Origin: a virus
Taxonomy: Duplodnaviria > Heunggongvirae > Uroviricota > Caudoviricetes
Direction: 5' to 3' (one strand)
Virus record (IMG/VR): IMGVR_UViG_2721755662_000003
DNA: 15,658 nt
In this document: positions 1,584-15,658 of the stretch, one piece after another
Numbering within the stretch: position 1 is the first letter of the stretch
Layout of the letters: every line of letters begins with the position of its first letter
Translations under genes and position numbers: made by a program
Notes under the pieces: model-generated
The model's database searches: none
Seen by the model: the letters and a program-made list of their open reading frames with translations, nothing else
What the model was told of the DNA's origin: nothing

Positions 1584-1772
1584 GTGTTAAGCACTGATCG
1601 GTTTATACGTGAAAAAGAATGCGAAAAACTAACCGGCCTTAGCCGTACGTGTCGCTACCGCCTGGAAAAGGCCGGACAATTCCCATCACGTCGTAAACTT
1701 GGCGGTCGTTCCGTTGGCTGGTCTTTATCCGAGGTTCTGGCCTGGAAGGATAGCTGCAAGGCAGTTCATTAA
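1584..1772 (+). CDS. alpA: AlpA/Vis-family winged-helix regulator/excisionase (about 62 aa from GTG 1584; maximal ORF from ATG 1503)
   Basis: Sequence LSTDRFIREKECEKLTGLSRTCRYRLEKAGQFPSRRKLGGRSVGWSLSEVLAWKD matches the AlpA pattern; RBS aagggggg 5 nt upstream of GTG 1584. Confidence 0.85.
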   Translation: MLSTDRFIREKECEKLTGLSRTCRYRLEKAGQFPSRRKLGGRSVGWSLSEVLAWKDSCKAVH

Positions 1773-2272: not shown

Positions 2273-2452
2273 TTACTCTGGTTCTTTGGCCTTGCGCCGC
2301 TGGCGATATTCAACTTCTCGTTTTAATGCCGCAGTAACAAATTGCCCCGTACTTTCGCCAGGCATTTTTACCGCCTCAACATTGTTCATAACTTCATGCG
2401 GAACCCTTGCCGCAACGGTTTGTGATTTTGCGTTTACCGCTTTTGTCGCCAT
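2273..2452 (-). CDS. Small ribbon-helix-helix-like DNA-binding protein (59 aa), candidate island repressor; not in the ORF track because it is under 60 aa
   Basis: Hand translation of minus strand: MATKAVNAKSQTVAARVPHEVMNNVEAVKMPGESTGQFVTAALKREVEYRQRRKAKEPE; beta-strand then two helices pattern typical of RHH; SD GAGGGG 7 nt upstream of ATG; divergent from operator-bearing promoter. Confidence 0.5.
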   Translation of the reverse strand: MATKAVNAKSQTVAARVPHEVMNNVEAVKMPGESTGQFVTAALKREVEYRQRRKAKEPE

Positions 2453-2502
2453 GTGGTGTACCCCTCATAAAAAACAAATGCAGTATGCAGGAAAAAAAAT
2501 AA

Positions 2503-2555
2503 GTGTTCAACACTTGACGTGTTTAACACCTGGGTTTAAATTGGTGTTCAACACC
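2503..2555 (+). promoter_or_regulatory. Early promoter (TTGACG -35 at 2514-2519, 17-bp spacer, TAAATT -10 at 2537-2542) overlapped by three operator dyads GTGTTYAACAC
   Basis: Operators at 2503-2513, 2519-2529, 2544-2554, each GTGTT-N-AACAC; they cover the -35, spacer and start region. Confidence 0.55.
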
Positions 2556-2651
2556 TTGTTGGCGCAAGGTGCAGAAACGACGAAACCCGGCAGTGCGCTA
2601 ACACTAACCGGGCTTCTAACCACCAACGATAGCGAAAGTATCGAGGTAGCT

Positions 2652-2855
2652 ATGAGAAATCATACCACACACCCGCAAGGGCGGGACTCGCACAACCTGA
2701 ATAAATACATCTGGCGTTTTATCGCCCTGAGCACGGCACAACCGCGCGTGATTACCATTGAGGCCACCAGCGAACAGGAAGCACGCCAGCAATCTCCGGC
2801 TGGCTGCGTGATGGTATTCGCTGCCCGTATTCGCCAGGGGTCACATCATGCGTAA
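2652..2855 (+). CDS. Small protein (67 aa), possibly Icd-like/Ash-like family seen in P4-type elements; paralog of 3088-3309
   Basis: RBS gaggt 4 nt upstream of ATG 2652; C-terminal region KYIWRFIALS...IEATSEQEARQQ...VFAARIRQG mirrors second copy. Confidence 0.5.
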   Translation: MRNHTTHPQGRDSHNLNKYIWRFIALSTAQPRVITIEATSEQEARQQSPAGCVMVFAARIRQGSHHA

Positions 2856-2859
2856 AAAC

Positions 2860-3140
2860 CGCTTGCAAAAAATTATCACGGGGCTGTATGCTTCCCCCGT
2901 CGCCCACATGGCGACCGGGTTTGACAGCCTGAATACATCTGGCGGACAGCCGCCCACATCCGATAAGCGGTTTTTTTGTGTCCGTAAACCTACCCATACC
3001 CGCATTATGGCGGGGCGTAACGGGGGAGCCTTTGTGCTCGCTGGTTTCCAGATGACCAGTCTGTCAACCCTGTTACGTCTCGCCACCATGTTTGACAGCG
3101 TAGTAGCGAGACTCCTTAAAATTCATCTGGGAGCCTTTCA
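2860..3140 (+). promoter_or_regulatory. Structured leader between the two paralogous small genes: nested stem-loops, repeated GTTTGACAGC and GCCCACAT motifs, terminator-like GCGG+T7
   Basis: GGCTGT(2872)...CCCGTCGCC cacat GGCGACCGGG...ACAGCC(2930); GGCGG acag CCGCC (2932-2945); aagcgg ttttttt (2956-2967); CTGTCAA(3062)/TTGACAG(3092); GTCTCGC(3077)/GCGAGAC(3107). Confidence 0.35.
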
Positions 3141-3309
3141 CATGGCTGTATCCGCACGCCCTTATTTTGTCTGGCGCTTTATGCAGTGCCTGACAGACAG
3201 CATTGCAATATTCACCGTTACCGCTGCCACTGAGCGCGAAGCACGTGCACAGCTGCCGCACGCACATCTGATTTTTGTCGCCCGTATTCGTCAGGGGGTA
3301 GGCTTATGA
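3088..3309 (+). CDS. Small protein, paralog of 2652-2855 (start uncertain: ATG 3088 or ATG 3142)
   Basis: PYFVWRFMQCL...TVTAATEREARAQL...IFVARIRQG parallels first copy; the N-terminal half of the 153-aa track ORF is probably not coding. Confidence 0.5.
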   Translation: MFDSVVARLLKIHLGAFHMAVSARPYFVWRFMQCLTDSIAIFTVTAATEREARAQLPHAHLIFVARIRQGVGL

Positions 3310-3536
3310 GTCAGGAAATCACACTACAACAGGCAGCAGAACGCGCCCACCAAATCGAAGTTATTTGCGCACTGGCAGAGGATTACCCTGGCATGATGAC
3401 CGACAGCGAATCAGGGGCAATCATCGGCTTACTTAAACGCCTTAGCGGTGAGGTCTGCGTATTCCTGAGCGATGAACAGGAAAGAAGAACGCTTATTTCT
3501 AACGAAAAAAAATGCGGAGGGGTACATGTGCAATAA
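3306..3536 (+). CDS. Hypothetical protein (76 aa), early operon
   Basis: ORF track; start overlaps previous stop (ATGA coupling). Confidence 0.5.
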   Translation: MSQEITLQQAAERAHQIEVICALAEDYPGMMTDSESGAIIGLLKRLSGEVCVFLSDEQERRTLISNEKKCGGVHVQ

Positions 3537-3747
3537 AACCACACCGGACGCAGCCGCCGCCGCGCTCACTACGCTGATGCACGCGCTTATTGATATTTCT
3601 GTTATTGCTGACAGGGCGCATAAACACGCAGCCAGAGAATCAGAATGCATCTTCCATTTAGCATTTGTGCAGCTAAAAGCCGATCAGGCACTGGATAAGG
3701 CCGGAAAAATTATCATGGCTGATGTGCAGGAGGTGCACCATGCATAA
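3527..3747 (+). CDS. Hypothetical protein (about 73 aa from ATG 3527; track start 3472)
   Basis: SD ggagggg 7 nt upstream of ATG 3527; overlaps flanking genes by a few nt. Confidence 0.5.
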
Positions 3748-4105
3748 TCTGTCAATTTCTGACCTTAACAGCATTCAGTTTGATGAGAAATTTACCGGGC
3801 AGTTGCTGGTCAATGTGGAGAACGGGCGCATAGTGCGTAATTATCACCTGCCGGATGGTGCAATTGCCGGAAGCGTTGAAGCATTGCTGGAACTGGCGGA
3901 ACGTGCGCGACTGATTAAGCCGTCAACGAGCCATCACGATGATGATCTGCATTTTACCGGATGTATGGTGAGTCACTACGAAAACGGCGTCGAGGTATCC
4001 TGTGAACGGCTGCGTGATGATTGCTGTTTCGGCACACTGCCGGAATTTATCGAGTTGCTGACCAGTTGCGGTTATCAGGTCATTCAGGGGGGTAAACATG
4101 CGTGA
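3740..4105 (+). CDS. Hypothetical protein (about 121 aa from ATG 3740; track start 3722)
   Basis: SD aggagg 8 nt upstream of ATG 3740; stop overlaps next start. Confidence 0.55.
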   Translation: MHNLSISDLNSIQFDEKFTGQLLVNVENGRIVRNYHLPDGAIAGSVEALLELAERARLIKPSTSHHDDDLHFTGCMVSHYENGVEVSCERLRDDCCFGTLPEFIELLTSCGYQVIQGGKHA

Positions 4106-4331
4106 TGATCGTTTTAATTCCCTGAAACAGGAATTTTCCGGCGTTCCTGATGATGCGGCTGATGCGCTTTCGTCAATGCCAGAACTTATTAGAGCGGCTT
4201 TTTTCTTACTTTCCACGAGAGAATATAAATCAACGGGGCTTGATGTACTGAATATCGCCGCCGATTATGCGGAATATGTGGCAGAGGCGCGTTATAGAAG
4301 AAAATTTCCTGAGGATGTAAGCCATGCGTGA
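4098..4331 (+). CDS. Hypothetical protein (77 aa)
   Basis: ORF track; translational coupling to neighbours. Confidence 0.5.
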   Translation: MRDDRFNSLKQEFSGVPDDAADALSSMPELIRAAFFLLSTREYKSTGLDVLNIAADYAEYVAEARYRRKFPEDVSHA

Positions 4332-4557
4332 TATTTACCACGAAACAATAGACCGCGCATTTCTTGCACTTTCTCACAGTGAAAACATGCTGGAAATATT
4401 GCGCATATGGCTTGAAACACTTGGCGACAATGAACGCGACAAACAAAAATCAAGAATTGCCACGGCATCAATAACGCTTCTTGAGCCTGTAATAATGGAA
4501 CTGCAAGAAATAGATCTATTGCACGACAGATATAAAGAACAGCACACCGGAGAATAA
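4324..4557 (+). CDS. Hypothetical protein (77 aa)
   Basis: ORF track; translational coupling to neighbours. Confidence 0.5.
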   Translation: MRDIYHETIDRAFLALSHSENMLEILRIWLETLGDNERDKQKSRIATASITLLEPVIMELQEIDLLHDRYKEQHTGE

Positions 4558-4562
4558 AAATA

Positions 4563-4862
4563 ATGAAACTTAAATATTCTGGCTTAACTGCCAGTGGCAA
4601 CACTCACCCTAAATTTACGCGCGGCGATATTTACCGCGACCAGTACGGCGGCACGGTAATGATTAAGGGCGTGGAAGAACGGCGCGTAACCTACCGCCGT
4701 GAAGGTTACGAATATGATTGCGTGATGCCTGTTTATCAGTTCCGGCGTGATTTTTCTCTGGTACAGACCGCGCCGCATAACGTGTCCACCAGCAACGCCA
4801 GGGCACGGGCAAACATCCAGAAGCTGAAAACCATGATTAACGGATTCAGGGGTAAAAAATGA
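4563..4862 (+). CDS. Hypothetical protein (99 aa) immediately upstream of and overlapping primase start
   Basis: ORF track; stop overlaps primase ATG (ATGA). Confidence 0.5.
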   Translation: MKLKYSGLTASGNTHPKFTRGDIYRDQYGGTVMIKGVEERRVTYRREGYEYDCVMPVYQFRRDFSLVQTAPHNVSTSNARARANIQKLKTMINGFRGKK

Positions 4863-6613
4863 AACTGGCACCGAACGTAAAACAGCAGTCACGCGGCATA
4901 AAACACAAAGAAACAGAAGTCATTATTTTTGCGGGTAGTGATGCCTGGTCACACGCAAAACAATGGCAGGAACATGACGCGCGTATGGCCGGAGATAATG
5001 AGCCTCCTGTGTGGCTTGGGGAGCAGCAGTTATCCGAACTGGATAAGCTGCAAATTGTGCCGGAAGGCAGAAAATCCGTGCGCATATTCAGGGCCGGATA
5101 TCTTGCGCCAGTAATGATAAAGGCGATTGGTCAGAAGCTGGCGGCGGCAGGCGTACAGGATGCAAATTTTTACCCTGATGGTATGCACGGTCAGAAGGTG
5201 GAGAACTGGCGCGAATATCTGGCCCGTGAGCGCCAGAATCTTTCTGATGGTCTGGTCATTGAGCTTCCGGTAAAGCAAAAGGCGCAACTTTCGCAGATGG
5301 CGGACAGTGAGCGCGCGCAGCTGCTTGCCGATCGCTTTGATGGCGTTTGCGTACATCCTGAAAGTGAAATCGTTCACGTATGGCGCGGCGGGGTATGGTG
5401 TCCGGTCAGCACAATGGAACTTAGCCGCGAAATGGTGGCGATCTATTCAGAGCACAGGGCCACTTTCAGCAAGCGCGTAATCAATAACGCCGTGGAAGCG
5501 TTAAAAGTTATTGCCGAACCAATGGGCGAGCCGTCCGGCGATTTGTTGCCGTTCGCCAATGGTGCGCTTGACCTGAAAACGGGGGAATTTTCCCCGCACA
5601 CGCCGGAGAACTGGATCACCACGCACAACGGCATTGAGTACACGCCACCAGCACCAGGGGAGAACATCCGCGATAACGCGCCAAACTTTCATAAATGGCT
5701 TGAGCACGCAGCCGGAAAAGACCCGCGCAAGATGATGCGTATATGTGCCGCGCTGTACATGATTATGGCGAACCGGTACGACTGGCAGATGTTTATTGAG
5801 GCCACCGGAGACGGCGGGAGCGGTAAAAGTACATTCACACACATAGCCAGCCTTCTGGCAGGGAAACAGAACACGGTAAGCGCTGAAATGACATCGCTTG
5901 ATGATGCTGGTGGACGTGCGCAGGTTGTCGGGAGTCGTCTTATCGTCCTGGCTGACCAGCCGAAATATACAGGCGAAGGAACGGGCATCAAGAAAATCAC
6001 GGGCGGTGACCCCGTGGAAATTAACCCGAAATACGAAAAGCGTTTCACGGCGGTAATCAGGGCGGTGGTGCTGGCGACCAACAATAACCCGATGATATTC
6101 ACCGAACGGGCCGGAGGTGTGGCACGTCGTCGCGTGATTTTCCGTTTCGACAATATCGTCAGTGAGGCCGAAAAAGACAGGGAGCTACCGGAAAAGATCG
6201 CGGCTGAAATCCCTGTCATTATCCGCCGATTGCTGGCGAACTTTACCGACCCTGAGAAGGCACGGGCTTTACTACTGGAACAGCGTGACGGTGATGAAGC
6301 TCTGGCAATAAAGCAACAGACGGATCCGGTTATTGAGTTTTGCCAGTTCCTGAATTTTCTGGAGGAAGCACGCGGCCTGATGATGGGCGGCGGTGGCGAT
6401 TCAGTGAAGTACACGACCAGAAACAGCCTTTACCGCGTCTATCTGGCGTTTATGGCGTACGCAGGCAGGAGCAAACCGCTAAACGTAAATGACTTTGGCA
6501 AGGCTATGAAGCCAGCCGCGAAAGTTTACGGACATGAATATATTACGCGGAAAGTTAAGGGAGTAACGCAGACTAACGCAATAACAACAGACGAGTGCGA
6601 CGCGTTTTTATAA
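4859..6613 (+). CDS. Replication protein: P4-family primase C-terminal type (D5_N-like region plus SF3 helicase NTPase), 584 aa
   Basis: Walker A GDGGSGKST, Walker-B-like LIVLADQP, D5_N-like region LPFANGALDLKTGEFSPHTPENWITTHNGIEY; followed directly by iteron ori. Confidence 0.85.
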   Translation: MKLAPNVKQQSRGIKHKETEVIIFAGSDAWSHAKQWQEHDARMAGDNEPPVWLGEQQLSELDKLQIVPEGRKSVRIFRAGYLAPVMIKAIGQKLAAAGVQDANFYPDGMHGQKVENWREYLARERQNLSDGLVIELPVKQKAQLSQMADSERAQLLADRFDGVCVHPESEIVHVWRGGVWCPVSTMELSREMVAIYSEHRATFSKRVINNAVEALKVIAEPMGEPSGDLLPFANGALDLKTGEFSPHTPENWITTHNGIEYTPPAPGENIRDNAPNFHKWLEHAAGKDPRKMMRICAALYMIMANRYDWQMFIEATGDGGSGKSTFTHIASLLAGKQNTVSAEMTSLDDAGGRAQVVGSRLIVLADQPKYTGEGTGIKKITGGDPVEINPKYEKRFTAVIRAVVLATNNNPMIFTERAGGVARRRVIFRFDNIVSEAEKDRELPEKIAAEIPVIIRRLLANFTDPEKARALLLEQRDGDEALAIKQQTDPVIEFCQFLNFLEEARGLMMGGGGDSVKYTTRNSLYRVYLAFMAYAGRSKPLNVNDFGKAMKPAAKVYGHEYITRKVKGVTQTNAITTDECDAFL

Positions 6614-6619
6614 TTTTTT

Positions 6620-6860
6620 GTAATTGCTGTCTACCCTGTCTACCTGAGTAAAGAAAAATACATTTAATTCAGTGCATTAAGTTAGGTAGATAACCTTTTT
6701 TTACTGTCTACCCACTATCTACCCTCTCTACCTGATTTTACCTGAATCAGACAGGGAGGTAGACACGGGGTAGATAGTGGATAAAAGCACTCTACCCCGC
6801 TGAAAGCCGCGCCATTACTGGTATGAGGGCCACTAAGGTAGATAAGGTAGACAAGGGGAG
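6620..6860. repeat. Iteron-type replication origin: at least 11 copies of the core TCTACC/GGTAGA (octamer YRTCTACC) in both orientations with AT-rich spacers
   Basis: tgtctacc at 6628, 6637, 6706; tatctacc 6717; tctctacc 6726; ctctaccc 6791; inverted copies ggtaga at 6685, 6758, 6771, 6838, 6847; AT-rich tracts 6611-6620, 6650-6680, 6692-6702. Confidence 0.7.
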
Positions 6861-7587: not shown

Positions 7588-7599
7588 GGGGTGGGGACG

Positions 7600-7872
7600 A
7601 TGGTACATGACCGCATAGCGGAAGAACTGGAGGCGAAAGGCTTTTACCGGAGAGCGTCGGCGCGATGGGGTGAAGTCATGCAACTGGTGGAGACAGACAA
7701 GGAACGGCATCACATCACGATGCGACGGCTGGAATGTTCCAGGAAGGCACAGAGGCCACCGGAGCCGCCGGATAACTACGGAGACCTGAAAAAGGCGGTC
7801 GATCGCACTTATGCCGAAATGGGTATGGATGGTGCTGGTAATGAAATATGGCGAAATTACCAGGACAGATAA
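7600..7872 (+). CDS. Probable PerC-family transcriptional activator (about 90 aa from ATG 7600)
   Basis: N-terminal MVHDRIAEELEAKGFYRRASARWGEVM matches my recollection of the PerC/Pch motif; SD gaggggtgggga upstream. Confidence 0.5.
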   Translation: MVHDRIAEELEAKGFYRRASARWGEVMQLVETDKERHHITMRRLECSRKAQRPPEPPDNYGDLKKAVDRTYAEMGMDGAGNEIWRNYQDR

Positions 7873-15493: not shown

Positions 15494-15658
15494 TCAATGT
15501 GTTATGCGAAATAAGTTATATATAACAGCAATAAATAATGCGAGAATAAACGGCACGATGATCTCGGCGGCAAAACGGATACCGCAGAGAATAATGACCA
15601 GCATTCCCAACATAATGACGATTTTTAGGCCATTGAGCGTGATGATCGGCTTTGCCAT
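15494..15658 (-). pseudogene. tqsA: Truncated 5' fragment of a tqsA (ydgG)-like AI-2 exporter gene: 46 host-like codons then 8 island-derived codons and stop
   Basis: Minus-strand translation [46 protein letters not shown] then YNLFRITH-stop; the first 46 residues match my recollection of the E. coli TqsA N-terminus. Confidence 0.55.

What the first reader, a model, noticed from the sequence alone, without database searches (positions are those of the whole stretch)
3306..4862. Six translationally coupled genes of unknown function upstream of the primase
Six ORFs of 73-121 aa with overlapping stop/start codons (ATGA-type junctions at 3306, 3536, 3747, 4105, 4331, 4862) form one operon with the primase. 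I recognise none of the products. In P4 and PICIs this position carries helper-manipulation functions (derepression of the helper, redirection of packaging, interference with helper reproduction). These are the most likely place for new phage-interference or anti-defence activities in the window.
Basis: inference. Interest (0 to 1): 0.65.

Follow-up and report, generated by a model that had tools for sequence, protein, structure and literature searches.

The report
Early small-gene array of phage satellite
Six tightly packed small genes ahead of the replication gene of an E. coli capsid-forming phage satellite are real and form one operon, but the last is the already published regulator RgdR. 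The other five are catalogued, uncharacterised, swappable modules, so this is an ordinary known kind of locus with a few new leads, not a demonstrated anti-phage arsenal.

Summary
The window is a capsid-forming PICI (EcCIEDL933 family) inserted in E. coli tqsA. It is 100% identical to many sequenced strains.

The six ORFs exist:
- O1 3306-3536
- O2 3526-3747
- O3 3740-4105
- O4 4098-4331
- O5 4324-4557
- O6 4563-4862

They are annotated by PGAP. Each matches a PHROG family (E 1e-28 to 1e-49), and O3, O4 and O6 show purifying selection. Only two junctions are true ATGA. Three are 8-11 nt overlaps, and O5/O6 has a 5-nt gap.

O6 is the ortholog of RgdR (80% identity, RGD motif, same slot). RgdR is a published DUF4222 regulator of LEE/T3SS and motility.

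DUF4222 genes sit directly upstream of replication initiators of at least six unrelated families. In satellites the 4-nt overlap is kept. The O6 model is an SH3/Tudor-like barrel with a basic helix.

O1-O5 are small and mostly acidic (pI 4.8-5.1; O2 6.3). They have no match to P4 epsilon or Cnr, to PADLOC, or to PDB sequences. O1-O4 are mosaic cassettes. O2/O4 and O3/O4 occur fused through poly-G length changes.

In this element the operon lies behind a P4/P1-type C4 antisense RNA-icd cassette.

A helper-manipulation role remains possible for O1-O4 but is unsupported. The prototype island does not block its helper.

The parts
1584..1772 (+). alpA-type HTH activator gene of the island
   Evidence: 98% identical to the annotated HTH regulator in L001 and in Sakai Sp7, and 45% to P4 orf88/Vis. 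AlpA activates downstream PICI genes in EcCICFT073 (PMC6092414).
2273..2452 (-). YlcI/YnfO-family small gene, read here as ribbon-helix-helix-like, divergent from the operon
   Evidence: PGAP annotation. A homolog sits in the same place in the Serratia element (56% identity). The RHH assignment and any regulatory role are inferred.
2497..2555 (+). Candidate operon promoter (TTGACG 2514-2519, 17-nt spacer, TAAATT 2537-2542) bracketed by three palindromes GTGTT(C/T)AACAC at 2503-2513, 2519-2529 and 2544-2554
   Evidence: Promoter scan, direct repeat D4 and reading of the sequence. Function is inferred.
2652..2855 (+). icd-like ORF 1
   Evidence: NCBIfam NF033153 phage_ICD_like, E 1.4e-19.
2886..2935 (+). 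a1/b1 target element of C4 RNA
   Evidence: Rfam RF03163, 46.8 bits against a gathering score of 46.7.
2950..2977 (+). Hairpin plus T-run (isrK-like 3' end), a possible attenuator
   Evidence: isrK match of 35 bits, below the gathering score. Fold is weak: z = -1.7 for 2940-2985.
3003..3090 (+). C4/CI-type antisense RNA
   Evidence: Rfam RF01695, 72.6 bits against a gathering score of 45, E 8e-13. Fold -47 kcal/mol, z = -6.5. P4 CI RNA scores 74.9 bits with the same model.
3091..3135 (+). b2/a2 target sites overlapping the icd-2 ribosome-binding site
   Evidence: Repeat D3 and inverted repeat I19. Bipartite duplex with the C4 loops of -27.7 kcal/mol; 6 of 300 shuffles did as well.
3142..3309 (+). 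icd-like ORF 2, ATGA-coupled to O1
   Evidence: NF033153, E 1.5e-14; sequence.
3306..3536 (+). O1: 76 aa, acidic, predicted helical from sequence; phrog_1478
   Evidence: Homologs are ECs1579 in Sp7 (51%) and Fels-1 STM0898.6n (41%). Present in 260 of 5426 E. coli genomes.
3526..3747 (+). O2: 73 aa; phrog_5146 and the N-terminal half of phrog_2512
   Evidence: Occurs fused to O4 as a 154-aa protein in L011. Present in 572 genomes.
3740..4105 (+). O3: 121 aa, tandem duplication of a ~55-aa beta-beta-(beta)-alpha domain; phrog_340
   Evidence: Single-domain relatives sit directly upstream of DUF4222 in L010, L015 and L027. dN/dS 0.08. Present in 347 genomes.
4098..4331 (+). O4: 77 aa, acidic; phrog_24341 and the C-terminal half of phrog_2512
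   Evidence: dN/dS 0.18. Present in 768 genomes. The poly-G tract at 4087-4092 precedes its start.
4324..4557 (+). O5: 77 aa, acidic, predicted helical from sequence; phrog_2196; conserved W-L-x3-L-x3-E core
   Evidence: Homologs are ECs1580 in Sp7 and the L012 71-aa ORF. Present in 715 genomes.
4563..4862 (+). O6: RgdR ortholog (DUF4222), 99 aa, pI 10.2, ATGA-coupled to the primase
   Evidence: Pfam DUF4222, 1.6e-24. 80% identical to ECs1581 in the same slot. R20-G21-D22 and K35 are present. AF2 model has a barrel core with pLDDT about 91. Present in 1238 genomes.
4859..6613 (+). pri-rep gene: conserved ~140-aa N-terminal domain followed by D5_N/DUF5906/Pox_D5
6624..6860 (.). Iteron field (CTGTCTACC in direct and inverted copies), the likely ori
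   Evidence: Repeats D1, D8, D13, I1, I8, I22 and I23. The position after rep matches the PICI layout (PMC6092414).

Best explanation
The six ORFs are the protein-coding body of the early operon of a capsid-forming PICI. The operon runs icd-like, O1-O6, pri-rep. It has two layers.

Layer 1 is a conserved, replication-proximal pair, O5 and O6. O6 is the RgdR ortholog. It is a small basic protein with an SH3/Tudor-like barrel and a C-terminal basic helix. It is made by translational coupling with the replication initiator. It most likely acts as a protein- and DNA-binding cofactor or modulator of initiation. This role would be analogous in position to P4 Cnr, without homology. Its published effects on LEE1, motility and Congo-red binding would then be spill-over onto host transcription.

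Layer 2 is a promoter-proximal set of exchangeable cassettes, O1-O4. They encode small, non-enzymatic cytoplasmic proteins, mostly acidic. O2 and O4 behave as two halves of one protein. O3 is a duplicated-domain insert between them. These are most plausibly stoichiometric binders of host or helper proteins, with unknown targets.

Expression (inferred): the operon starts from an operator-flanked promoter at about 2514-2542. It is boosted after the helper triggers AlpA. In this particular element it is additionally gated by a C4/CI-type antisense RNA that pairs with the icd-2 ribosome-binding site. Translation and transcription of everything downstream would therefore stay low in the integrated state.

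Shown: the gene structure, family memberships, synteny, mosaicism and the RNA element.
Inferred: the regulatory logic, the replication-cofactor role and the binding functions.
For: Identity of the element:
- int, alpA, pri-rep, SSB, PerC, capsid, protease, portal, connectors, HNH, TerS and TerL are present, with no tail genes. The element is inserted in tqsA.
- The gene content matches EcCIEDL933/Sp7 (10.1101/2022.09.08.507074).

The genes are real.

O6 is RgdR:
- 80% identity to ECs1581, in the same position, with a 4-nt overlap with the Rep gene.
- RgdR is reported in all analysed E. coli PICIs (PMC6092414).

DUF4222 is linked to initiators:
- Five of five distant homologs (27-38% identity) overlap by 4 nt a D5_N/DUF5906, DUF927 or Zn-ribbon/Toprim primase gene.
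- E. coli alleles precede AAA_25 RepA, DUF927, DUF5906 or primase genes.
- In the annotated lambdoid phages core-only DUF4222 ORFs lie between the cII-position gene and the O-like initiator. In the unannotated Stx2a phage a second DUF4222-like ORF overlaps a 313-aa O-like gene by 4 nt.

Fold of O6:
- Residues 20-70 have pLDDT about 91 and form five strands. A helix spans 77-96.
- RgdR shows weak non-specific DNA binding (PMC3378721).

O5 is conserved in Sp7 and in the distant element L012.

Prevalence rises towards the primase: O1 260, O3 347, O2 572, O5 715, O4 768 and O6 1238 of 5426 genomes. All six occur together in 131.

Cassette behaviour and fusions.

Regulation. AlpA is an activator (PMC6092414).
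Against: - No experiment or complex prediction links O6 or O5 to the Rep protein. Conserved adjacency could reflect shared regulation only.
- RgdR deletion changes T3S in an uninduced lysogen (PMC3378721). O6 is therefore expressed without island induction and may be selected for host regulation.
- The O3 model is poor (pLDDT 61) and has no fold match.
- O1-O5 have no informative homolog, so 'protein binder' is a default inference from size, charge and lack of domains.
- The C4 cassette is absent from most relatives, including Sp7, so it is not part of the general mechanism.
- The C4-target duplex is only moderately better than shuffles.
Confidence: 0.55

Rival explanations
1. One reading: the six genes are helper-manipulation, phage-interference or anti-defence genes. 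They would be functional counterparts of P4 epsilon or of PICI interference genes.
For: - The slot matches that of epsilon/orf151/cnr in the P4 left operon, behind a C4/CI RNA.
- O1-O4 are mosaic, small and mostly acidic (pI 4.8-6.3). They are present in only 5-14% of genomes.
- O1 has homologs in the early-left operons of real temperate phages: Fels-1 and Klebsiella phages, beside recombination genes.
Against: - No match to PF25738 (epsilon), DUF5375 (Cnr), PADLOC or NCBIfam. hhalign probabilities against epsilon, Cnr and orf151 are below 1%.
- EcCIEDL933 has O1-, O5- and O6-type genes and does not block its helpers (10.1101/2022.09.08.507074).
- The expected immune hot spots of cf-PICIs are elsewhere (10.1101/2025.02.11.637232).
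- O5 and O6 are core genes, not accessory genes.
Confidence: 0.2
2. The operon, or at least O6, is lysogenic-conversion cargo. Its selected function would be regulation of host genes (LEE/T3SS, flagella, curli), and proximity to the primase would be incidental.
For: - Deleting ecs1581 lowers T3S, adherence and sheep colonisation. The orthologs from CFT073 act alike (PMC3378721).
- The island also carries a PerC/PchE homolog.
- O6 keeps R20 and K35, residues shown to matter for T3S activation (PMC3378721).
Against: - RgdR is present in all analysed E. coli PICIs, including LEE-negative strains (PMC6092414; PMC3378721).
- DUF4222 keeps its ATGA overlap with Rep at 27-38% identity in unrelated islands with other cargo, and occurs before O genes in lambdoid phages.
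- Such conserved synteny is not expected for a virulence moron.
Confidence: 0.2
3. Some of the six ORFs are not independent functional genes. They would be decaying fragments or split pieces of larger genes: O2 plus O4 of a 154-aa gene, and O3 plus O4 of a 196-aa gene.
For: In-frame fusions exist in complete genomes and in many assemblies. They differ by one G in a poly-G tract. Frameshifted or truncated copies occur: O4 in Shigella L004 and DUF4222 in L010.
Against: - Both the split and fused states recur in diverged alleles with intact downstream frames.
- dN/dS is low for O3 and O4.
- Each split gene has its own start and Shine-Dalgarno-like run.
- The split arrangement is 100% conserved in at least 19 listed genomes, and 106 records match at 99% identity or more.
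Confidence: 0.1

Closest known systems
RgdR (ECs1581) locus of O-island 51 / CP-933C / Sakai prophage Sp7, the EcCIEDL933-type cf-PICI
   Same: - Same element type and same operon order: alpA, icd-like, small ORFs, DUF4222, pri-rep, SSB, PerC, capsid module.
- O6 is 80% identical to RgdR, with the RGD motif and the ATGA overlap with Rep.
- O1 resembles ECs1579 (51%) and O5 resembles ECs1580 (27%).
   Different: - Sp7 lacks O2, O3 and O4 and has an unrelated 61-aa gene (ECs1578) instead.
- Its Rep is a DUF927 type that shares only the N-terminal ~160 aa.
- Rfam detects no C4 RNA in it, and it sits at a different attachment site.
P4 left operon (orf88/vis, CI RNA, epsilon, orf151, cnr, alpha)
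   Same: An AlpA/Vis-type regulator, a C4/CI-type RNA (72.6 against 74.9 bits with the same Rfam model), then several small ORFs, then the primase. A small gene sits immediately before the primase.
   Different: No sequence or profile similarity between O1-O6 and epsilon (PF25738), orf151 or Cnr (DUF5375). The primase differs: there is no Zn-ribbon/Toprim N-terminus here. The island builds its own capsids instead of remodelling P2's.
P1/P7 immI module (c4 RNA, icd, ant)
   Same: a1/b1 sites, C4 RNA, downstream a2/b2 sites at the icd ribosome-binding site, and an icd-like ORF translationally coupled to the next gene.
   Different: The coupled downstream genes are O1-O6 and a primase, not the Ant antirepressor. 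None of the six has an AntA/AntB or KilA domain.
DUF4222 'pre-initiator' ORFs of lambdoid phages (mEp460, vB_EcoS-733R5, Klebsiella ST147-VIM1phi7.2, Stx2a phages)
   Same: A DUF4222 barrel gene lies directly upstream of, and often overlaps, the replication initiator gene.
   Different: The phage versions are core-only (55-75 aa). They lack the N-terminal MKxKxSGLTASG peptide and the C-terminal basic helix of the RgdR subfamily. Their function is also unknown.

Membership tests
Capsid-forming PICI (cf-PICI, EcCIEDL933 type) | PICI-type int, alpA and pri-rep genes at the left end | tested here: met
   int is 91%, alpA 98% and the Rep N-terminus 82% identical to Sp7.
Capsid-forming PICI (cf-PICI, EcCIEDL933 type) | Own HK97-type capsid, protease, portal, connectors, HNH, TerS and TerL; no tail genes; about 15 kb | tested here: met
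   PGAP annotation of the identical locus. The major capsid protein is 99% identical to that of Sp7.
Capsid-forming PICI (cf-PICI, EcCIEDL933 type) | Helper-dependent induction and transfer with helper tails | not testable with these tools
   Experimental property (10.1101/2022.09.08.507074).
RgdR / DUF4222 | Pfam DUF4222 domain above the gathering score | tested here: met
   85.7 bits against 27, E 1.6e-24.
RgdR / DUF4222 | Orthology to ECs1581: full-length similarity and the same genomic slot | tested here: met
   79.8% identity over 99 aa. Both overlap the Rep start by 4 nt.
RgdR / DUF4222 | RGD motif at residues 20-22 and K35, residues shown to affect activity | tested here: met
   ...KFT-R20-G21-D22-IYRDQYGGTVMI-K35 (PMC3378721).
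RgdR / DUF4222 | Activates LEE1/T3S and represses motility | not testable with these tools
   Phenotype known only for ECs1581 and C1493 (PMC3378721).
P4 epsilon (helper derepression protein, PF25738) | Match to the Derepression family profile or to P4 epsilon | tested here: not met
   P4 epsilon hits PF25738 at 2.9e-50, while none of O1-O6 does. BLASTP and hhalign are negative.
P4 Cnr (DUF5375) | Match to DUF5375 or to P4 Cnr | tested here: not met
   Only the position, immediately upstream of the primase, is shared.
C4/CI antisense-RNA immunity module (P1 immI / P4) | C4 RNA above the Rfam gathering score | tested here: met
   72.6 bits against 45. Fold z = -6.5.
C4/CI antisense-RNA immunity module (P1 immI / P4) | Upstream a1/b1 and downstream a2/b2 complementary sites, the latter at the icd translation start | tested here: met
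   RF03163 at 46.8 bits against 46.7, which is borderline. Repeats D3 and I19. Duplex of -27.7 kcal/mol covering the Shine-Dalgarno-like GGGAG at 3130-3134.
C4/CI antisense-RNA immunity module (P1 immI / P4) | icd-like ORF coupled to a downstream effector gene | tested here: met
   NF033153, 1.5e-14. ATGA junction with O1. The effector is not Ant or epsilon.
C4/CI antisense-RNA immunity module (P1 immI / P4) | The RNA actually represses downstream expression | not testable with these tools
   Needs a reporter or Northern experiments.
Known anti-phage defence systems (PADLOC-DB) | Any component model matched | tested here: not met
   No hit at E <= 0.1 for any of the six.

The most novel reading that the evidence does not exclude
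DUF4222/RgdR may not be a virulence regulator by design. It may be a widespread, previously unrecognised partner of replication initiators in satellites and lambdoid phages. In this reading it is a Tudor/SH3-like adaptor, co-translated with the initiator, that couples it to RNA polymerase, nucleoid proteins or DNA at the origin. The LEE and motility phenotypes would be collateral. The neighbouring O2/O3/O4 modules would form a complex whose architecture is toggled between split and fused states by poly-G slippage, giving a phase-variable host- or helper-targeting device.
Probability: 0.25. Interest if true: 0.6.

Novelty: new member of a known kind. Interest (0 to 1): 0.38.

Why it matters
E. 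coli PICIs and cf-PICIs are present in a large share of genomes. Part of this locus matches 1842 of 5426 complete E. coli genomes. They influence virulence gene expression in EHEC through RgdR and PerC homologs.

If RgdR-family proteins are built-in partners of the replication initiator, this would explain why every E. coli PICI carries one. It would give a testable native function for a regulator known only by its side effects. It would also point to a conserved target for blocking satellite spread.

The five remaining small proteins are abundant but unstudied. The map of which are core (O5, O6) and which are swappable (O1-O4, with natural fusions) tells experimenters which deletions and pairings to test first.

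As it stands, the finding is largely a correct description of a known kind of locus, not a new system.

Tried and rejected
- Homology of O1-O6 to P4 epsilon, orf151 or Cnr. BLASTP, Pfam and hhalign were all negative. The weak O6/orf151 BLASTP hit (E 0.047) was not backed by Pfam.
- Paralogy among the four ORFs read as helical (O1, O2, O4, O5). hhalign probabilities were at most 3.8%. One wrong-frame sequence contaminated the O1 profile, so that test is weak for O1.
- The apparent phrog_2512 link between O2, O3 and O4 is explained by natural O2::O4 fusion proteins, not by homology.
- Defence or anti-defence assignment through PADLOC, NCBIfam and Pfam: nothing.
- PDB sequence searches returned nothing meaningful. 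O3 and O6 were searched as single sequences, O1 and O5 as profiles, O2 and O4 through the natural 154-aa fusion protein, and the Rep N-terminal domain as a profile.
- BFVD search with the O6 model returned only uncharacterised or DUF1653 phage proteins. The afdb50 library was unavailable.
- The search for related loci with the primase gave only three loci.
- Literature search for ECs1578-1580, z1840/1841 or c1492 found no functional work.
- The idea that the C4 cassette is a general cf-PICI feature was rejected. Rfam finds it in P4 and in this window, but not in Sp7, L004, L005 or L008-L012.
Full report
**What the window is.** The 15.7-kb window carries these genes in order: a tyrosine integrase, an AlpA-type regulator, icd-like ORFs, six small ORFs, a D5_N/DUF5906/Pox_D5 primase-helicase, an SSB, a PerC homolog and a complete HK97-type head and packaging module. 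That module comprises capsid, protease, portal, two connectors, HNH, TerS and TerL. There are no tail genes. The window is 100% identical to a chromosomal island inserted in tqsA (ydgG) of E. coli FORC_069 and many other strains, where PGAP annotates the same genes. This is the architecture of capsid-forming PICIs, whose prototype is EcCIEDL933 (10.1101/2022.09.08.507074). The Sakai counterpart of that prototype is prophage Sp7, also known as O-island 51 or CP-933C. It shows the same order and near-identical SSB and capsid genes. Equating Sp7 with EcCIEDL933 is my inference from gene content, size and the O-island 51 literature.

**Checking the observation.** The six ORFs are real:
- O1 3306-3536 (76 aa)
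- O2 3526-3747 (73 aa)
- O3 3740-4105 (121 aa)
- O4 4098-4331 (77 aa)
- O5 4324-4557 (77 aa)
- O6 4563-4862 (99 aa)

The primase starts at 4859. The junction types differ from the finding. ATGA overlaps occur only at icd/O1 and O6/primase. O1/O2 overlap by 11 nt and O2/O3 by 8 nt. O3/O4 and O4/O5 overlap by 8 nt with the same string, ATGCGTGA. O5/O6 are separated by 5 nt. Each start has its own purine-rich Shine-Dalgarno-like run.

All six match PHROG families of unknown function at E 3e-28 to 2e-49. O6 matches Pfam DUF4222. dN/dS against diverged alleles is 0.08 for O3, 0.18 for O4 and 0.27-0.38 for O6; O5 is uninformative. The consensus scan lists no promoter-like site on the + strand between 2542 and 8200. 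It lists no terminator-like site on the + strand between 2079 and 5218. No Rfam family matches inside 3306-4862. The 'one operon with the primase' reading is therefore well supported by sequence.

**O6 is already known.** In Sakai Sp7, the gene in exactly this slot is ECs1581. It is 99 aa and overlaps the Rep start by 4 nt. O6 is 80% identical to it. ECs1581 is RgdR. It activates LEE1 and type III secretion, represses motility and increases Congo-red binding. It binds DNA weakly and non-specifically. Residues R20 of an RGD motif and K35 matter for its activity (PMC3378721; PMC10877973). O6 has R20-G21-D22 and K35. RgdR is reported in all analysed E. coli PICIs (PMC6092414). That work also notes a related element between ydgD and ydgG in strain ED1a, the attachment site seen here.

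**What travels with what.** Some part of 2450-5350 is found in 1842 of 5426 complete E. coli genomes, but at least 80% of it in only 96. Per-gene megablast prevalence rises towards the primase: O1 260, O3 347, O2 572, O5 715, O4 768 and O6 1238 genomes. All six occur together in 131. Sampled loci show cassette behaviour:
- O1-O2-O3-O4'-O5'-O6 before a RepA (AAA_25) helicase (L008).
- O1-O2'-O4-O5-O6 without O3 (L009).
- O2-O3-O4, then a single-domain O3 relative, then a frameshifted DUF4222 before a DUF5906 gene (L010).
- An in-frame O2'::O4 fusion of 154 aa, then O5 and O6 (L011).
- O2'-O4(truncated)-O5-O6 in Shigella (L004).

Sp7 has an unrelated 61-aa gene, then O1-like, O5-like and RgdR genes.

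The 154-aa fusion explains why phrog_2512 hit O2 and O4. The split and fused states differ by one G. The tract is G8 in L009 and L004 and G7 in L011. O3::O4 fusions in several diverged alleles all read ...VIQGVNMRDDRF, which is one G fewer than the G6 tract at 4087-4092. I read this as evidence that O2, O3 and O4 work together. This is Rosetta-stone logic and an inference.

O3 is a tandem duplication of a ~55-aa domain. Single-domain relatives and inter-repeat deletion variants exist.

**DUF4222 and replication initiators.** Five distant DUF4222 proteins (27-38% identity) were traced to their contigs. Every one overlaps by 4 nt the start of a replication gene: DUF927, D5_N/DUF5906 or a P4-alpha-like Zn-ribbon/Toprim primase. 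Four of the five contigs are integrase-AlpA islands with otherwise different cargo. The fifth contig is too short to show its flanks. One representative is even fused to a primase zinc ribbon (P0240).

In E. coli the same gene precedes primase, RepA-helicase, DUF927 and DUF5906 genes. In the annotated lambdoid phages, core-only DUF4222 ORFs sit between the gene in the cII position and the O-like initiator. In the unannotated Stx2a phage, a second DUF4222-like ORF overlaps by 4 nt a 313-aa O-like gene that is followed by a DnaC-like gene.

In the satellites, the initiators share a conserved ~140-aa N-terminal domain regardless of their catalytic engine. The alpha-type primase of L015 is the exception. 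This domain has no Pfam or PDB sequence match.

The slot immediately upstream of DUF4222 holds one of two things. It is either an O5-like protein, read as helical (window, L004, L007-L009, L011, L012), or a single O3-like domain (L010, L015, L027). O5 and O6 are therefore core, replication-linked genes, not cargo.

The O3 model is poor (pLDDT 61; two beta-beta-(beta)-alpha units) and has no credible fold match. O1-O5 have pI 4.8-6.3 and O6 has pI 10.2. None has a match to a PDB sequence.

**How the operon is controlled in this element.**
- A promoter-like site (TTGACG-17-TAAATT, 2514-2542) lies between a divergent YlcI/YnfO gene and the first icd-like ORF. Three GTGTT(C/T)AACAC palindromes bracket it.
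- Between icd-1 and O1 there is a module typical of P4 and P1 immunity. It has an a1/b1 element at 2886-2935 (RF03163, at threshold). A hairpin with a T-run follows. Next is a C4-type RNA at 3003-3090 (72.6 bits against a gathering score of 45; fold z = -6.5). Then come b2/a2 sites complementary to the C4 loops and covering the icd-2 ribosome-binding site. Last is icd-2, ATGA-coupled to O1.
- P4's own CI RNA scores 74.9 bits with the same model.

By analogy with P1 c4-icd-ant and P4 cI-eps-alpha (established knowledge), the RNA should hold down translation and transcription of everything downstream in the integrated state. AlpA, shown to activate downstream genes in EcCICFT073 (PMC6092414), would raise transcription after the helper signal. 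This logic is inferred.

The cassette is itself optional. It is present in 122 of 5426 genomes. Rfam does not detect it in Sp7, L004, L005 or L008-L012.

- Topologically, the operon is the counterpart of the P4 left operon.
- None of O1-O6 resembles epsilon (PF25738), orf151 or Cnr (DUF5375) by BLASTP, Pfam or hhalign.
- There is no PADLOC or NCBIfam hit.
- EcCIEDL933 carries O1-, O5- and O6-type genes and does not block helper reproduction (10.1101/2022.09.08.507074).
- The regions where the cf-PICI authors expect immune systems flank the packaging module (10.1101/2025.02.11.637232).

O1 has homologs in the early-left operons of Fels-1 and Klebsiella phages, so it is a generic temperate-phage early gene. 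A helper- or host-directed role remains possible for O1-O4, and especially for the untested O2-O3-O4 block, but nothing here supports it positively.

**Verdict.** The locus is a new allele combination of a known kind of operon in a known satellite family, and one gene has already been characterised.

Three leads seem worth following:
1. The conserved DUF4222-initiator coupling, which suggests a native replication-linked role for RgdR. Its LEE-up, motility-down and Congo-red-up effects resemble an hns-like perturbation. This is my own reading and is untested.
2. The poly-G-mediated split and fused states of O2/O3/O4.
3. The presence of a P4/P1-type antisense immunity cassette in a subset of cf-PICIs.

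Noticed in passing
window 2886-3135, with icd-like ORF 3142-3309: A complete P4/P1-type antisense immunity module lies directly upstream of O1: a1/b1, a hairpin with T-run, C4 RNA (72.6 bits), and b2/a2 sites over the icd-2 RBS. It is present in 122 of 5426 E. coli genomes. Rfam does not detect it in the EcCIEDL933-type Sp7 or in other sampled relatives.
   Followed up: partly
window 2497-2555: A sigma-70-like promoter (TTGACG-17-TAAATT) is bracketed by three palindromes GTGTT(C/T)AACAC. It lies between a divergent YlcI/YnfO gene (2273-2452, minus strand) and icd-like ORF 1. It is the candidate operator and promoter of the whole operon.
   Followed up: partly
window 4087-4092; L009 3725-3732; L011 3623-3629: Poly-G tracts just before the ATGCGTGA junctions act as the downstream gene's SD. 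By losing one G they fuse O3 with O4 or O2' with O4 in frame. Fused forms recur in diverged alleles, which suggests slippage-driven switching between split and fused states.
   Followed up: partly
window 4859-5280 (primase residues 1-140); L007, L008, L010, L012, L023, L025, L027: A conserved N-terminal domain (MK.APNVK...E.IIFAG.DA.AHA..W) is shared by initiators with different engines (D5_N/DUF5906, AAA_25 RepA, DUF927). Wherever that domain was seen with an intact upstream region, a DUF4222 gene precedes it; in Serratia L005 only an apparent remnant is left. The domain has no Pfam or PDB sequence match.
   Followed up: partly
window 6624-6860: A field of CTGTCTACC iterons in direct and inverted orientation lies just downstream of the primase gene. 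It is the likely origin of replication.
   Followed up: no
window 7591-7872: A PerC-family gene (87% identical to PchE of Sp7) lies immediately upstream of the capsid operon. It is a second homolog of a LEE-regulator family in the same island, and possibly the activator of the packaging module.
   Followed up: no
window 15494-15658 (minus strand) and L001 9708-10613: The island interrupts tqsA (ydgG, the AI-2 transporter gene). The 5' fragment of the gene is at the right end of the window. This is the same attachment site reported for the RgdR-carrying element of strain ED1a.
   Followed up: partly
window 4330-4343 and 4626-4639: The O5 N-terminus (MRDIYHE) and the RgdR motif region (RGDIYRD) share 13 of 14 nt. 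In L015 the RgdR N-terminal peptide is attached to an O3-like domain. These may be recombination scars between modules.
   Followed up: no
L012 7570-9877; L023 6739-7706; L027 6747-7346: Distant satellites with the same int-alpA-icd-DUF4222-Rep backbone carry toxin-type cargo downstream of Rep: PAAR/pyocin S with CdiI, Hcp with Tlde1, and ParE with PhdYeFM.
   Followed up: no
P0206 (metagenomic protein): A 797-aa repetitive protein gives five weak DUF4222-like stretches (E 9e-10). This is probably a convergent beta-repeat and not a true relative.
   Followed up: no
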